Below are positions 9,152 to 50,020 of a DNA stretch of 56,369 nt, one piece after another. Positions within the stretch are counted from its first letter, which is position 1; each line of letters begins with the position of its first letter. The DNA lies in IMG/VR virus record IMGVR_UViG_3300027573_000035, positions 1-56,369 of that record. One strand, written 5' to 3'. The notes beneath the pieces were generated by a model, which saw nothing but the letters and a program-made list of their open reading frames with translations, had not been told where the DNA came from and ran no database searches. A program made the position numbers and the translations under genes. Origin of the DNA: a virus (taxonomy: Duplodnaviria > Caudoviricetes).

Positions 9152-10802
9152 AATTTGTGATGACATATATCTTGACTGCTTTCATCACCTGCTTGACTTA
9201 AATGATGACATTGACATTGAACTGATTTTTGGTGGCAGGGATTCAGGCAAATCAAAATTCCTTGCACAACTGTTCACAACTGCCTGCATGGAACTTGATT
9301 ATTTTCGTGCCTTGCTTATTAAGCAGACATTTGAAAGCATCAAAGACACCCAGTGGCAACTTATCAAGGACAATGCAGAACAGTGGCAGGTTGACCACCT
9401 ATTCAAGTTTTTCACATCACCACTTTCCATCAGGTGTGACAATGGCAACAGTTTTCATTGCAGGGGCATGGACAACCCTGCAAATATCCGGTCCTTTGCC
9501 AATCCTTCACATGCATGGATTGAAGAAGCAACACAAATCAGTGAAGATGGTTTTATCAATGTCTTGACAGGATTGCGGTCTGATTATGGCAGGGTGAAAT
9601 TGTACTTCACTTTTAATCCTGAAGCAGATACACCTGACTTCACTGACTTCTGGCTTTATAAAATGTTTTACAAGAACCATGAACCTGATGTCAATTTTGT
9701 TGGAAGTATTAAATTAAAGTTCATTAATAATTTTGGACATGAACAGGAAGTGTCATTGAAATACAGGTCCACACATGTCACCTATCATCAGAATCCATTT
9801 GTTTCACCACAAAGGATTGCATTTCATGAAAGCCTGAAGGAAAACAACCCTTATTGGTACAGGGTTTTCACATTGGGTTTATGGGGTAACATCCTGAATG
9901 ATTCACCATGGGCATTTGCCTTCAATAAAGCAAAACATGTCAGTGATGGTGCCATGATAAAACACCCAGTGTATGACAGGTCACATGAACTGTATCTTTC
10001 ATGGGATTTTAACCGCAATCCAATGACATGTCTTGTCATCCAACATTATAATTCAACAGTGAAAGTCCTTGAATCAATCAGGGTGCCAAGGACCGGCATT
10101 GATGGTGTCACTGATGTCATCAAAGTAAAATATCCTTATGCACTTTACATCATTACAGGTGACTATAATGGCAACAACACATCATCATTGTTTGCAGAAC
10201 ATGTCACACATTACAAATTGATAAAGCATTTCCTGAAGCTTGCAGACAGTCAATTCAAGGTCAAACCAAATCCATTGCAGGCAAAAAATTCAACACATAT
10301 AAACAATGTTTTATCATATTACAATGTGATTATTCATGGCACTGATGCAGCATCACTGGTCTTTGATTTGGAGAATGTCAGAAGACGTGCAAACGGCACC
10401 ATCATGAAGACAGACCGTGACAACCCTGCACAACAGGCAGACAGTTTGGATTGCTTCAGATATTTTTGCAATGCCTTTCTTGATTGGTTTCAACCAATGC
10501 CTGCACCACCACCAAAGACATCTGTCACTTATGTTTCACCTGTTGCAGATGAAAACAAACCACTGCTTGAAAGTGACCTTAATGGATTGGTACAGTTTAA
10601 TAATTATCATGCTTCAGATATTGAAGCAGGAAGGCAGGTGGTTTGCACACAAGAAGATTATCAAGGGTTTATGCGTAATGAACTGATTAAAAAGGTGAAT
10701 GGATGGATTGCAGTTAGTGATTATATTCGTGCAAGATTTGCAATTGAAGAAATCAAAAGGCTTGATGGTTTGTTCATACCATCAACACTTGATGTTGCAT
10801 AA
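9138..10802 (+). CDS. terL: terminase large subunit (PBSX-like)
   Basis: Walker A GGRDSGKS, Walker B WIEEA, FNP coupling motif, nuclease SWDFN and DSLDCFRY. Confidence 0.93.
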   Translation: MKEVEICDDIYLDCFHHLLDLNDDIDIELIFGGRDSGKSKFLAQLFTTACMELDYFRALLIKQTFESIKDTQWQLIKDNAEQWQVDHLFKFFTSPLSIRCDNGNSFHCRGMDNPANIRSFANPSHAWIEEATQISEDGFINVLTGLRSDYGRVKLYFTFNPEADTPDFTDFWLYKMFYKNHEPDVNFVGSIKLKFINNFGHEQEVSLKYRSTHVTYHQNPFVSPQRIAFHESLKENNPYWYRVFTLGLWGNILNDSPWAFAFNKAKHVSDGAMIKHPVYDRSHELYLSWDFNRNPMTCLVIQHYNSTVKVLESIRVPRTGIDGVTDVIKVKYPYALYIITGDYNGNNTSSLFAEHVTHYKLIKHFLKLADSQFKVKPNPLQAKNSTHINNVLSYYNVIIHGTDAASLVFDLENVRRRANGTIMKTDRDNPAQQADSLDCFRYFCNAFLDWFQPMPAPPPKTSVTYVSPVADENKPLLESDLNGLVQFNNYHASDIEAGRQVVCTQEDYQGFMRNELIKKVNGWIAVSDYIRARFAIEEIKRLDGLFIPSTLDVA

Positions 10803-10853
10803 GTCTTATTTTATTGGTTTTACGGGGATTGTTTCTACTATCCCCGTTTTTTA
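10793..10853 (+). ncRNA. candidate anti-leader small RNA A / terminator
   Basis: Reverse complement of TAAAACCAATAAAAT..ATGCAAC followed by ACGGGGAT-T-GT-TTCT-AC-T-ATCCCCGT and U tract. Confidence 0.5.
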
Positions 10854-10951
10854 TTTTTTATACAGTATCATATATTTACCACCATTCATCTGGCTGTCAT
10901 GCTTTCAGCAGCAGCAAAACCGGCAGACTTCTTTTTAAATTCCCTTTCCTG

Positions 10952-11284
10952 ATGGTGGAAGAACTTGCATTTGTTTTGCTGACATCATTTAAAATCATGT
11001 TTGTGTATGTTGCCATGAAGGAAGGCATGATTTTTCATTTTGTGCCAATCCTGATTGAACATCTTTTTGCTGCATTGTTACCTGCAAAAAATTGGGCATT
11101 GACATTTGCCTGTTATGCAAGGAAACCTTTATATGGTTGTGTCATCTGCATGTCTTCAATTTGGGGTGTTTTATTTTCATTAAACAGGTTTTCCTTCAGT
11201 GTGGAATACCTGTTTTTTTTATTTGCTGTTGGTGGTCTTAATTATTTATTTGATTCAATAATTGCAAAACAAAATGCTGATTGA
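10952..11284 (+). CDS. membrane protein (DUF1360-like, possible holin)
   Basis: Several hydrophobic segments; KPLYGCVICMSSIWG motif. Confidence 0.6.
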   Translation: MVEELAFVLLTSFKIMFVYVAMKEGMIFHFVPILIEHLFAALLPAKNWALTFACYARKPLYGCVICMSSIWGVLFSLNRFSFSVEYLFFLFAVGGLNYLFDSIIAKQNAD

Positions 11285-11525
11285 AAAGAAAAATGAAATG
11301 CTTCAGGCAGGATGGATTTGTTCAAAGTGTGCATGTCCATCAGGCAGGGGTTTTGATTGTGTCCATCCACTGCACCAAGGTTTTCTTATATACTTAAGAC
11401 CGGCAGTGGCAAAGCTTATGAAGAAAGGATTTTGCATTGAATCAATGCATCTTTATCAACTCAATGAAATACTTAAAAAACATGGTCTTTCAGAAATTAG
11501 TCAACCGGTTGACCCGAAAAAATAA
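11274..11525 (+). CDS. small Cys-rich protein
   Basis: CSKCAC...CVH; overlaps both neighbours. Confidence 0.55.
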   Translation: MLIEKKNEMLQAGWICSKCACPSGRGFDCVHPLHQGFLIYLRPAVAKLMKKGFCIESMHLYQLNEILKKHGLSEISQPVDPKK

Positions 11526-12123
11526 ATGGTCAAATGTTGATGCTGCAATCAAGTATGCCTTCACATGTGGTGGCATTGACTATTATCAATTTGAAGACTT
11601 CAACAACATGCCTGCATTGCGGGGATTGAAGACAATGGTTTTTTATGAAGAAATGAGAATGAAAGTGTCAATGGAATATTTAAAGGAACATGTGAAAGCA
11701 GTGGATGAACAGTTGTTGCAGCATAAGATAAATATTTACAACATCAAGAAGTTGAATGACCAATTGTTTCAAAGACTTGACATTGGAATTGACATGGACT
11801 TGGTGTTGAAAATATCATCCATTGTCTTCTTCACATCTGATGAAAATATAAAGGATTATGATTATGCATACAATGCAAAAAAAGTTGAACATTGGAAGAA
11901 GTATGGTGGTGCAGATTTTTTTTTGCAGCAGCCTTTGTTGGAATTGTTACCTGCTTTAAAAAATACGAAAGTCAATTTGGCGAATTATATAAAAGTTCAG
12001 GAAAAGTTAAATCAAATTCATTTGGATACTTTGTCACAACTGTTGCCACAAGAACAGACAATGAAATTGAAAGGCAAATCTTATTTATCGCTGGCAATGA
12101 TGCAGCCAAAATCAAGGAAGTGA
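11482..12123 (+). CDS. putative tail assembly chaperone (gpG-like)
   Basis: Position just upstream of the tape measure gene; T9 slippery run 11916-11924. Confidence 0.6.
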   Translation: MVFQKLVNRLTRKNKWSNVDAAIKYAFTCGGIDYYQFEDFNNMPALRGLKTMVFYEEMRMKVSMEYLKEHVKAVDEQLLQHKINIYNIKKLNDQLFQRLDIGIDMDLVLKISSIVFFTSDENIKDYDYAYNAKKVEHWKKYGGADFFLQQPLLELLPALKNTKVNLANYIKVQEKLNQIHLDTLSQLLPQEQTMKLKGKSYLSLAMMQPKSRK

Positions 12124-48879: not shown

Positions 48880-48895
48880 TTAAAATCAATCAATC

Positions 48896-49234
48896 ATGGA
48901 CATTCAAGGACATTTAATCAAGGACAGTGAAATCATTGGCATTGGACCATTGATGAACATTCAATCAGAAAGTCAAATTGGCAAAATCTACAATTCAAGA
49001 AAATTGTTTTATGACATCCACCTGAAGGAAAGGTCAATCAGTATTGAAAGCAATTATCTGAATATTGGTTATGATAAAGCAAGCACTGAAGAAGAACAGG
49101 CAAGGGAAAAATGGTATGAATTTATAAAAGATTATAGTGGTGTGAAGAAGGTCATTGAAGGATTAATCAACCCAATCAAAAATGATTTGAATAAAATATT
49201 GAATGAACAAAAAAACCAAACACATGAAAAGTAA
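48896..49234 (+). CDS. hypothetical protein
   Basis: 112 aa ORF. Confidence 0.65.
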   Translation: MDIQGHLIKDSEIIGIGPLMNIQSESQIGKIYNSRKLFYDIHLKERSISIESNYLNIGYDKASTEEEQAREKWYEFIKDYSGVKKVIEGLINPIKNDLNKILNEQKNQTHEK

Positions 49235-49457
49235 ATTTGAATTTAAAACTGAAAATGATTGGAATGAATATTTGGTGCAGTATTATGCAGGACTTGCCAT
49301 GGCTGCAATGCTGTCCAATCCAAGAACAATTGAACTGATGGAAATGCAAACGGCACCTGCTGACAAGACAAGGCAGGTTGCAAATCAGGCTGTTCTTTAT
49401 GCAGCAAATTTGGCTTATGTTATTGATAAGTTTCACATAAAAGATGAAGCAGCATGA
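49224..49457 (+). CDS. conserved phage hypothetical protein
   Basis: YYAGLAMAAMLSNP...AVLYAANL pattern. Confidence 0.65.
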   Translation: MKSKFEFKTENDWNEYLVQYYAGLAMAAMLSNPRTIELMEMQTAPADKTRQVANQAVLYAANLAYVIDKFHIKDEAA

Positions 49458-49867
49458 AACCAACCAACATTGCCACCAAGGAAGGCATTTATAAGCTTAT
49501 TGATGAAGTCCAATCCTTTTTGGAAGCACATTATGCTTCAGACAATATAACAGCCTGTTTGGACCGTTTAAGAAGCTTGGAAGGATATCTTGCAACAACC
49601 GGCAAGGCACTTGCTGATGCCAAATATCTTTTAAGGGAAATGACTGAAGCTTCAATCTCAACAATTAAAACCCTGCATCCTGAACTGTCACCTTCAATAC
49701 TTTCAAAACTTATTGAAAGTTTGTGCCGTGAAAATGCCTACATGGTGGACAGGTTGGACCGGCAAAATTCCGGTTGTGTTCATCAGATTGATGCAACAAG
49801 GACCACAATATCAACCCTTAAGGAAGAAATGAAAATAAGTTCTTATTTTGAAGGAAAAGGACCATAA
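49454..49867 (+). CDS. helical hypothetical protein
   Basis: 137 aa ORF. Confidence 0.7.
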   Translation: MKPTNIATKEGIYKLIDEVQSFLEAHYASDNITACLDRLRSLEGYLATTGKALADAKYLLREMTEASISTIKTLHPELSPSILSKLIESLCRENAYMVDRLDRQNSGCVHQIDATRTTISTLKEEMKISSYFEGKGP

Positions 49868-49949
49868 ATTGCCATCCCTTTTCAATTTTAGTTGCCATGC
49901 AGGAAGCTTATCAATTAACAGATAATTCACCACCTTTCCGGCAGATATT

Positions 49950-50020
49950 AAAAATCCCTTTCAGTAAAAACTGAAAGGGATAATTTTTTTAAAACCAATA
50001 AGGAAAATTGATGTGACAAT
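49950..50020 (-). ncRNA. candidate anti-leader small RNA D
   Basis: Minus strand: CACAT..TTATTGGTTTTA then ATCCCTTTCA-GT-TTTT-AC-TGAAAGGGAT and TTTT. Confidence 0.45.

What the first reader, a model, noticed from the sequence alone, without database searches (positions are those of the whole stretch)
10793..50020. Candidate guide-plus-handle small-RNA family antisense to the phage's own translation-initiation regions
Seen: four intergenic elements share one architecture, a U/G-rich segment complementary to phage gene leaders, then a hairpin, usually then a U tract. They are A 10793-10853(+), B 25391-25463(+), C 41852-41931(+) and D 49950-50020(-). The four stems are unrelated in sequence (ACGGGGAT/ATCCCCGT, GGTCTGAT/ATTGGACC, GGCAGT/ACTGCC, ATCCCTTTCA/TGAAAGGGAT), yet all are capped by GT-TTYY-AC. 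None of the eight-plus ordinary terminators here carries that cap. Inference: a fixed apex on covarying stems looks like a protein-binding handle and the variable 5' part looks like a guide, so these may be trans-acting RNAs that shut off translation of early phage genes or host genes. I know of no description of this family but could not search. Alternative: they are decayed opposite-strand hairpin+leader+ATG cassettes, although the ORFs there are only 8 aa (A), 10 aa (B) or ATG-TGA (D).
Basis: partly seen in the sequence, partly recalled or inferred. Interest (0 to 1): 0.88.

Follow-up and report, generated by a model that had tools for sequence, protein, structure and literature searches.

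The report
Phage terminator hairpins beside inverted gene-start motifs
The four elements are real hairpins, but they are best read as copies, in both orientations, of this phage's repeated intergenic unit (stem-loop plus conserved gene-start motif), not as a family of guide RNAs; their shared loop sequence is real and unexplained.

Summary
All four hairpins exist and fold as described. GTTTYYAC caps only these four in the window. The set is mixed, though.

- **A** (10822-10847) is a stem-loop plus T run directly after the large terminase gene.
- **C** (41903-41926) has the same form, after a tRNA-like element.
- **D** (49954-49981) is a two-way terminator. Its "guide" is simply the complement of a forward gene-start motif.
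- **B** (25437-25460) has no T run. It lies in an 80-nt insertion that the closest relative lacks.

The complementarity to leaders has a concrete source. A motif, AAAACCAATAAAAT, precedes the ATG of about 12 genes. A carries an exact inverted copy, C a degenerate one, D a forward one and B none. Read on the opposite strand, A and B each look like the 5' end of another gene in this phage. The nearest known parallel is the PeSL cassette of T4-type phages.

The cap is not chance. It ranks first of 2622 apex 8-mers. It is kept at the terminase site in two relatives, one of them inverted. It is partly kept at C's orthologue and lost at D's.

No RNA data exist. A small-RNA role for the A-type module remains possible (about 15%).

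The parts
10822..10847 (+). Hairpin A: 8-bp G/C-rich stem, T.T mismatch, then GT/AC closing pairs around a TTCT loop. A T run follows at 10848-10860. It starts 19 nt after the stop codon of the large terminase gene (9138-10802).
   Evidence: Terminase assignment from PHROGs. The orthologous hairpin in relative G1 keeps the cap on a changed stem.
10808..10821 (-). Inverted exact copy of the 14-nt gene-start motif AAAACCAATAAAAT, abutting hairpin A. On the minus strand an ATG follows at 10800-10798, opening an 8-codon frame that overlaps the last terminase codons.
   Evidence: In one search the alignment rows for window 10790-10862 and 48488-48410 show likeness to the 5' end of gene 48478.
25437..25460 (+). 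Hairpin B: 10 continuous pairs, TTCC loop, no T run. It lies 24 nt before the ATG of gene 25484-26404.
25390..25469 (.). 80-nt stretch holding B. It is absent from the closest relative and is bounded by an 8-nt direct repeat (25382-25389 and 25462-25469).
   Evidence: Calling it an insertion is inference.
25578..25601 (+). Direct repeat of hairpin B (22 of 24 identical) inside the coding sequence of the downstream gene.
41781..41852 (+). tRNA-like element with a 6-nt anticodon loop, immediately 5' of element C.
   Evidence: ARAGORN. No Rfam tRNA match even at E<=10. Acceptor-, D- and T-arm-like parts are conserved in G1.
41903..41926 (+). Hairpin C: 6-bp stem, two T.T mismatches, GT/AC closing pairs around a TTCC loop. 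A T run follows at 41927-41931. It lies 37 nt before the ATG (41963) of the SbcC-like gene.
   Evidence: The G1 orthologue has a C-G to A-T double change in the stem and apex GTTTTAAC.
49954..49981 (+). Hairpin D: 12-bp stem with T runs on both sides, the better one on the plus strand. It ends the unit of gene 49454-49867.
   Evidence: The G1 orthologue shares the stem base but has a different apex.
49991..50016 (+). Forward copy of the gene-start motif (one mismatch) followed by ATG-TGA (50011-50016).
50003..50031 (.). 11-bp perfect inverted repeat that encloses the ATG-TGA, upstream of the 414-aa gene (true ATG at 50125).
   Evidence: (-30.5 kcal/mol for 49940-50040, z = -7.7).
48427..48480 (+). 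Example of an intact forward cassette: stem-loop, short T run, motif, then the ATG of gene 48478.

Best explanation
The four elements are copies of this phage group's modular intergenic unit. The unit is a G/C-rich stem-loop beside an A-rich gene-start motif (AAAACCAATAAAAT, usually 10-13 nt before the ATG). Intact forward copies sit before about 12 genes, mostly small genes and replication genes.

- D is a forward copy whose reading frame has shrunk to ATG-TGA. Its hairpin is a two-way terminator.
- A, B and C are copies inverted relative to their neighbours.
- A and C have a T run on the plus strand, so they most likely act as Rho-independent terminators or insulators: A after the terminase gene, C after the tRNA-like element.
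- B is a recent 80-nt insertion in a 5' leader.

The 'guide' complementarity follows from carrying the same repeated motif in reverse. It is not evidence of targeting.

The GTTTYYAC apex is a real, selected feature of some of these hairpins. Its role is not established.

Shown: the structures, positions, motif statistics, orthology, the compensatory stem change, and the likeness of A and B (minus strand) to other gene starts. Inferred: termination, and origin by cassette recombination.
For: 1. Motif. AACCAATAAA with up to 1 mismatch occurs 36 times against 15.5 +/- 3.8 expected, and 0 of 100 shuffles reach 36. It sits just upstream of the ATG of about 12 genes: starts 1630, 3635, 4582, 5553, 7542, 35522, 44028, 47492, 47962, 48478 and 51468 on plus, and one minus-strand gene at about 24308. 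It occurs likewise in relatives G1 and G2.
2. A on the minus strand reads hairpin, exact motif, ATG. The model built from A-type elements also picks up the reverse complement of the real cassette of gene 48478, with likeness running through the ATG and first codons.
3. B on the minus strand has a 12-nt match to the ATG region of gene 53908.
4. D on the plus strand reads terminator, motif, ATG-TGA.
5. In relative G6 (terminase 48% identical) the same unit directly follows the terminase stop in the forward orientation.
6. The units come and go. B is absent in G1. The G6 unit is absent in L181. G1 has an extra capped terminator at 51092.
7. Terminator features. A and C have a T run on the plus strand. 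C's orthologue shows a compensatory C-G to A-T change.
8. No Rfam family matches.
Against: - The cap is kept beyond what a plain terminator needs. Of 17 GTTTCCAC in the three phages, 6 sit at a hairpin apex, against a 3.9% background. That gives p = 2.8e-5, the top of 2622 8-mers, but about 0.07 after correcting for 2622 tests. One of the six is B's copy inside the coding sequence.
- The cap persists at the terminase site in G0, G1 and G6, and the T run stays on the cap strand even where the unit is inverted.
- The inverted motif beside A is identical in G0 and G1 although the surrounding spacer has diverged. In G1 it resembles that phage's own DnaB-gene leader over about 25 nt.
- The role of the gene-start motif (leader element or phage-specific promoter) is not settled. 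I found no host-type promoter in the cassettes by eye.
- B's 22-of-24 match to the downstream coding sequence is not explained by the cassette reading.
- No expression data exist.
Confidence: 0.6

Rival explanations
1. The A-type module is a functional small RNA. It would run about 70 nt: the 5' segment, the capped hairpin and the U run. In this phage and G1 it would be cut from the terminase mRNA 3' end. In G6 it would be transcribed on its own, convergent with the terminase gene. Its single-stranded 5' part would pair with the shared motif of early-gene start regions, and the GUUUCYAC loop would bind a protein or RNA partner. C could be a second member, released as a trailer of the tRNA-like element.
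For: - A has an exact 14-nt complement of the motif, left unpaired in the predicted fold.
- A's top-5 duplex energies beat all 100 shuffles, and only 0.02 of the 46 intergenic controls do as well or better.
- The G1 orthologue beats 60 of 60 shuffles on the same measure and matches its own DnaB-gene start region through the ATG.
- The 5' segment, cap and T-run polarity are conserved between G1 (plus) and G6 (minus) (79.5 and 79.7 bits).
- In G6 a TAnnTTTG-type box lies about 45 nt upstream on that strand. I read this; the consensus itself is recalled.
- C is the next best hit of the A-type model (34.4 bits, E about 0.01).
Against: - In G6 the 5' segment is no more complementary to start regions than shuffles are (fractions 0.42, 0.33, 0.15 of 60), and G6 lacks the motif family. 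Targeting is therefore not what is conserved.
- The G2 look-alike (42735-42785) is also not significant.
- The same sequence pattern is expected from an inverted duplicate of a gene's 5' end.
- I saw no promoter for A in this window.
- No RNA data exist.
Confidence: 0.15
2. The inverted units are active on the motif strand (minus for A, B and C). The motif would be a phage-specific promoter or leader driving short antisense transcripts or tiny peptides opposite the terminase 3' end, the capsid-module leader and the tRNA-like element.
For: - The motif-to-ATG spacing in A (7 nt) and D (8 nt) is close to the usual 10-13 nt of real genes, and a minority of real genes have it shorter still.
- Terminators directly before many motif copies imply that a promoter must lie nearby.
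- The simple sigma-70 scan flags 10837-10808 and 41897-41869 on the minus strand. This is a weak indication only.
Against: - They are not conserved as peptides between G0, G1 and G6.
- In two real genes the ATG abuts the motif. The motif is therefore transcribed there, which fits a leader better than a promoter.
- The spacing between the cap and the TAAAAT part varies (18, 14 and 12 nt in G0, G1 and G6), so the cap is not a fixed upstream promoter box.
- The T run lies on the other strand.
Confidence: 0.1
3. The capped hairpins act at the DNA level. The conserved loop would be a site on extruded or single-stranded hairpin DNA, for a recombination or replication protein. That would explain the orientation flips and the gain and loss between relatives.
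For: - The units are inverted, inserted and lost between relatives.
- B is bounded by an 8-nt direct repeat.
- The phage encodes RecT and an SbcC-like protein.
- The authors of the PeSL paper speculate that the conserved stem-loop may be the target of a DNA-binding protein (Discussion passage).
Against: - The T run stays on the cap strand in 8 of the 10 capped hairpins aligned (not in B, and weakly in D). That points to an RNA-level terminator role.
- No candidate binding protein was identified.
- There is no terminal-repeat or transposase signature.
Confidence: 0.08

Closest known systems
PeSL (promoter-early stem-loop) cassettes of T4-type phages RB49 and phi1 (Arbiol et al. 2010, PMC2839356; passages read)
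   Same: - Repeated intergenic units that combine a G/C-rich stem-loop terminator with the expression signals of the next gene.
- Placed mostly before small orphan genes.
- Associated with insertion, deletion and replacement differences between close relatives.
   Different: - PeSLs carry a demonstrated sigma-70-type early promoter and a Shine-Dalgarno site. Here the repeated block is an A-rich motif of unknown role, and I recognised no host-type promoter.
- Inverted solo copies and a conserved loop sequence are not described in the passages I read.
- The host group differs. Relatives of this phage lie in Chitinophagaceae and other Bacteroidota assemblies.
- The supplementary figures of that paper were not available.
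Rho-independent (intrinsic) terminators
   Same: - A stem-loop followed by a U run at the 3' end of a transcription unit (A, C, D).
- The stem is maintained by a compensatory change (C).
   Different: - Ordinary terminators do not keep their loop sequence across relatives whose terminase is only 48-68% identical.
- B lacks the U run.
Phage antisense regulators such as the C4 RNA of phage P1 (passages of PMC8198154), and 3'UTR- or tRNA-trailer-derived small RNAs of enterobacteria (recalled, no call)
   Same: A short RNA made from a longer transcript, with a single-stranded segment complementary to start regions and a terminal hairpin.
   Different: - No transcript, processing site or regulatory effect is shown here.
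- The complementarity is to a repeated motif.
- It is not conserved in the more distant relative G6.

Membership tests
Rho-independent terminator | G/C-rich stem-loop directly followed by a U-rich run on the transcribed strand | tested here: met
   Met for A, C and D on the plus strand. Not met for B, which has no T run.
Rho-independent terminator | Position at the 3' end of a transcription unit, kept in relatives with the stem maintained | tested here: met
   A lies after the terminase gene in G0 and G1. C lies after the tRNA-like element in G0 and G1, with a C-G to A-T double change. D lies after gene 49454-49867 in G0 and G1.
Rho-independent terminator | Transcripts actually end there | not testable with these tools
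   No RNA run is listed for this phage.
PeSL-like regulatory cassette | Repeated intergenic unit of a stem-loop plus the expression signals of the downstream gene | tested here: met
   Motif statistics and positions. Hairpins directly upstream of motif copies.
PeSL-like regulatory cassette | The unit contains a functional early promoter | tested here: inconclusive
   I saw no conserved two-block promoter in the 45 nt upstream of the motif copies. The role of the motif is unknown.
PeSL-like regulatory cassette | Units mark insertion, deletion or replacement points between relatives | tested here: met
   B is present in the window and absent in G1. The terminase-side unit is present in G6 and absent in L181. 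It is inverted between G0/G1 and G6.
Trans-acting base-pairing small RNA | Complementarity to targets beyond composition-matched controls | tested here: inconclusive
   Against shuffles A, C and D pass. Against real intergenic segments only A passes: 0.02 of 46 controls. B gives 0.42, C 0.13 and D 0.45 of 60.
Trans-acting base-pairing small RNA | Pairing conserved in relatives | tested here: inconclusive
   The G1 A-orthologue passes (0 of 60 shuffles as good on the top-5 measure). The G1 C-orthologue is marginal (0.07). The G2 look-alike and G6 do not pass.
Trans-acting base-pairing small RNA | A discrete transcript on the predicted strand | not testable with these tools
   No RNA holder is listed.
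Any Rfam family | Match at the curated threshold | tested here: not met
   0 matches in the whole window at gathering scores. Only chance-level hits appear around C at E<=10.

The most novel reading that the evidence does not exclude
The A-type module is a conserved small RNA of a group of Bacteroidota phages. It would consist of a 5' segment, a hairpin capped by GUUUCYAC and a U run. In this phage and its closest relative it would ride on the terminase (late) mRNA 3' end. Through its exact complement of the shared early-gene start motif, it would dampen translation of a dozen early and replication genes at once. The invariant loop would be the handle for a phage or host partner. C, released behind a tRNA-like element, would be a second member.
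Probability: 0.13. Interest if true: 0.75.

Novelty: new variant of a known kind. Interest (0 to 1): 0.35.

Why it matters
If the main reading is right, an uncultured phage group linked to Chitinophagaceae and other Bacteroidota organises its genes with repeated stem-loop-plus-motif units. These units can be inserted, lost and flipped, like the PeSL cassettes of T4-type phages. That extends a mechanism of modular shuffling to a very different phage-host world. It also warns that apparent antisense guides can be inverted copies of a repeated leader.

Two things remain unexplained and are cheap to test once a host or an expression system is available:
- the loop sequence kept on changing stems across relatives whose terminase is only 48% identical;
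- the 14-nt gene-start motif, in a phylum whose translation start signals are poorly understood.

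Tried and rejected
- **Rfam.** The whole window at gathering scores gave 0 matches. 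The region around C at E<=10 gave only chance-level hits and no tRNA model.
- **Cultured relatives.** A nucleotide search of 20 kb against cultured phages found no match. A terminase protein search found nothing close: the best hit was 45.5% identity over 48% of the query. No annotated relative was therefore available.
- **RNA evidence.** No RNA holder is listed for the terminase region.
- **DNA contigs.** Contigs of four runs laid on 10700-25600 were almost identical to the window. They showed no variation in A or B, so they gave no population test.
Of the 80 loci I could read, 4 had 4 or more further pairs. I ran no control pattern, so this only shows it is not common.
- **Is it a general cap in a host-type genome?** The 10-mer GGTTTYYACC is not above its reversed control in two Chitinophagaceae-type genomes: 84 vs 79 and 38 vs 43. 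In 400 kb of one of them, 1 of 34 tetraloop terminator-like hairpins carries GT-TTCC-AC, and GTTTCCAC sits at an apex in 1 of 10 cases. That is too few to decide.
- **More distant terminase relatives.** I checked 11 genome loci (2 end before the stop codon) and 16 of the 38 viral loci. Only one (L180 = G6) has the capped hairpin at the terminase end.
- **Cap as a promoter element.** I considered the cap as a promoter -35-like box. I rejected it because the spacing to the TAAAAT part varies (18, 14 and 12 nt).
- **Cap as an anticodon-loop mimic.** Rejected because the closing pairs do not fit a 7-nt loop.
- **Cis pairing at B.** A 12-nt, 11-of-12 complement exists between B and codons 4-7 of the downstream gene. 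I considered a cis-acting switch. It is not kept in G1, the minimum-energy fold keeps the local hairpin, and the region folds no better than shuffles (z = -1.08).
- **Pair counts on the ten capped hairpins** (91% of cells paired vs 56% in shuffles). These carry no weight, because the sequences were chosen as hairpins.
- **Literature.** Searches for the 8-mer found no paper. A search on terminator loops in Bacteroidetes gave nothing relevant in the listing.
- **Limits.** Supplementary files of the PeSL paper were not available. Gene starts for the duplex tests come from my own greedy ORF map with first-ATG refinement, so the start-region sets are approximate.

Full report
**What the window is.**
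The window is a complete or near-complete phage record of 56,369 bp with 37% G+C. Nearly all genes lie on the plus strand. Recognisable genes are:
- a large terminase at 9138-10802;
- an SbcC-like protein at 41963-43996;
- RecT, a metallo-beta-lactamase-fold protein, a methyltransferase-like protein and a DnaB helicase between 44 and 53 kb;
- a polysaccharide lyase and a collagen-repeat protein in the tail region.

Six small minus-strand genes lie at 23314-24958. Terminase relatives occur in assemblies labelled Ginsengibacter, Puia, Flavihumibacter, Danxiaibacter, Chitinophagales, Mucilaginibacter and Bacteroidia. The host is therefore probably a member of the Bacteroidota, perhaps the Chitinophagaceae. 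There is no close cultured relative.

I fetched three related phage records whole:
- G1: 59.4 kb, terminase 68% identical;
- G2: 60.5 kb, 56% identical;
- G6: 56.1 kb, 48% identical.

**The observation.**
Each has GTTTYYAC at the apex, that is, two closing pairs G-C and U-A around a UUYY loop.

The 8-mer as such is not enriched: 12 matches against 10.9 expected. Its placement is what stands out. A covariance model of capped hairpins scores A, B, C and D (minus strand) at 31-37 bits in the window. The next window hit scores 21.9 bits. None of the other terminator-like hairpins listed has the cap.

The caveats are:
- A and C have T.T mismatches under the cap.
- D has the cap only on the minus strand, and its better T run is on the plus strand.
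- B has no T run.

**Where the complementarity comes from.**
The duplex test against 78 approximate start regions showed A, C and D pairing better than dinucleotide shuffles. The best partners all shared one sequence. This is a conserved motif, AAAACCAATAAAAT.

Its 10-nt core with up to one mismatch occurs 36 times, against 15.5 +/- 3.8 in shuffles; none of 100 shuffles reaches that. It lies usually 10-13 nt, sometimes 0-4 nt, before the ATG of about 12 genes. Five are in the first 8 kb, five are between 44 and 52 kb, one is at 35.5 kb and one is in the minus-strand block. G1 and G2 have the same motif before their genes. A 400-kb sample of a Chitinophagaceae-type chromosome does not show it at gene starts: 4 of 387 starts.

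The four elements relate to the motif as follows:
- A's 5' flank (10808-10821) is the exact reverse complement of the motif.
- D's minus-strand "guide" is the reverse complement of a forward copy (49991-50002) that is followed by ATG-TGA.
- C has a degenerate inverted copy.
- B has none.

Against real intergenic segments of similar T content, only A remains unusual.

**The elements read on the other strand.**
- On the minus strand, A reads: A run, hairpin, motif, 7 nt, ATG. The likeness to the real cassette of gene 48478 continues through the ATG and the first codons. The last five terminase codons are encoded by this stretch.
- On the minus strand, B has a weaker motif-like stretch and a 12-nt match to the ATG region of gene 53908.
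- In G1 the inverted unit beside the terminase gene resembles G1's own DnaB-gene leader and ATG over about 25 nt, with two small gaps.
- In G6 the homologous unit follows the terminase stop in the forward orientation, with a 10-codon frame.

**Orthologues.**
- A's orthologue in G1 keeps the cap (GTTTCCAC) on a changed stem, and keeps the inverted motif core.
- C's orthologue in G1 again follows a tRNA-like element. It has a C-G to A-T double change in the stem, keeps the GT/AC closing pairs and has a TTTA loop.
- D's orthologue in G1 shares the base of the stem but has a different, larger loop.
- The B region is missing in G1, where the two genes are 9 nt apart. In the window it is an 80-nt stretch bounded by an 8-nt direct repeat.
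- B's hairpin is also a 22-of-24 direct repeat of a stretch 138 nt downstream, inside the next gene. The protein segment there is conserved in G1 with different codons. I have no explanation for this repeat.

**Is the cap more than chance?**
I scanned G0, G1 and G2 for all 8-mers of the form two closing pairs plus four loop letters.
- GTTTCCAC ranks first of 2622. It sits at an apex in 6 of 17 occurrences, against a background of 1042 of 26,973 (p = 2.8e-5, about 0.07 after correction).
- Pooled GTTTYYAC is at an apex in 10 of 40 occurrences (p = 2.2e-6).
- The six include B's copy in the coding sequence and one weak hairpin in G2, so they are not all independent.

Independent support comes from capped terminators at non-orthologous sites:
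- G1 51092-51111;
- G2 53383-53404 and 42752-42775, with related caps;
- a distant relative (L009/L010);
- one hairpin in the chromosome sample.

The strongest point is the terminase-side unit. The cap and the T run on its strand are kept in G0, G1 and G6 although the unit is inverted in G6.

Outside this group the cap is not a general feature. Only 4 of 80 sampled viral occurrences beside a T run lie in hairpins (no control pattern was run). I could not find the 8-mer in the literature.

**How it most likely works.**
A and C are most simply Rho-independent terminators or insulators on the plus strand. D is a two-way terminator followed by a decayed gene start and an 11-bp inverted repeat that encloses the ATG-TGA. 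B is a recently acquired hairpin in a 5' leader.

The units behave like the PeSL cassettes of T4-type phages. Those are repeated stem-loop-plus-promoter units placed before orphan genes, and they mediate insertion, deletion and replacement (PMC2839356, passages read). The differences are:
- the role of the motif here is unknown;
- the inverted solo copies;
- the conserved loop.

**What keeps the small-RNA idea alive.**
- A has an exact, unpaired complement of a motif shared by a dozen start regions.
- That complement is kept in G1, where it tracks a G1 leader.
- The 5' segment is conserved between G1 and G6.

What speaks against it:
- The G6 segment has no excess complementarity to G6 start regions, and G6 lacks the motif family.
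- An inverted duplicate of a gene's 5' end predicts the same pattern.
- No RNA data exist.

I put this reading at roughly 0.13-0.15.

**Limits.**
- The start-region sets rest on my own ORF map.
- Shuffle numbers are 60-100.
- E-values of the two models are rough.
- Only four genomes of the group were read whole.

Noticed in passing
window, about 12 gene starts (e.g. 1610-1629, 3616-3634, 44009-44027, 47941-47961, 48457-48477, 51447-51467): A conserved 14-nt A-rich motif lies 0-13 nt before the ATG of small genes and replication genes. It is nearly absent from the structural genes and is shared with relatives G1 and G2. Whether it is a translation signal, a phage-specific promoter or a regulator's target is open.
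   Followed up: partly
window 3022-3046, 4447-4475, 23306-23326, 23806-23825, 24068-24090, 24340-24361: Six terminator-like hairpins share nearly the same stem (core CCGGCA / TGCCGG) with different loops. A second group shares GGCAGGC- or AAGGCTGC-type stems (5452, 29958, 47379, 48427, 53373, 54392). These are repeated-stem families, the opposite pattern to the capped hairpins.
   Followed up: no
window 41781-41852: A tRNA-like element has a 6-nt anticodon loop. Only ARAGORN calls it; the Rfam tRNA model does not. Its acceptor-, D- and T-arm-like parts are conserved in G1. It could be a processing signal or a decayed tRNA.
   Followed up: partly
window 23314-24958: A block of six small minus-strand genes lies inside an otherwise plus-strand genome. 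The hairpins between them have their T runs on the plus strand, so they would stop antisense read-through from the upstream late genes.
   Followed up: no
window 50003-50031: A perfect 11-bp inverted repeat with a 7-nt spacer encloses an ATG-TGA mini-frame. It lies between terminator D and the 414-aa gene (ATG at 50125). It could be an operator or a translational trap. G1 has a direct repeat at the same place instead.
   Followed up: no
window 25445-25456, 25493-25504, 25583-25594: Codons 4-7 of gene 25484-26404 are 11-of-12 complementary to both copies of the B repeat. The pairing is not conserved in G1.
   Followed up: partly
window 19829: DNA contigs from three of the four runs laid stop or branch here, with two alternative continuations. 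This could be a structural variant or a physical end in the population.
   Followed up: no
window 25256-25260: All four runs laid show a 3-nt insertion (GCA) after 25256 and an A-to-T change at 25260 relative to the window, inside gene 25002-25388.
   Followed up: no
G2 (L016 11760; L018 8363 and 9507, i.e. G2 48363 and 49507): G2 has a repeated intergenic palindrome whose loop and right arm hold a TAnnTTTG-type box, with TTTG about 21 nt upstream. This looks like the Bacteroidota promoter consensus (the consensus is recalled, not from a call). One copy follows the G2 terminase gene.
   Followed up: partly
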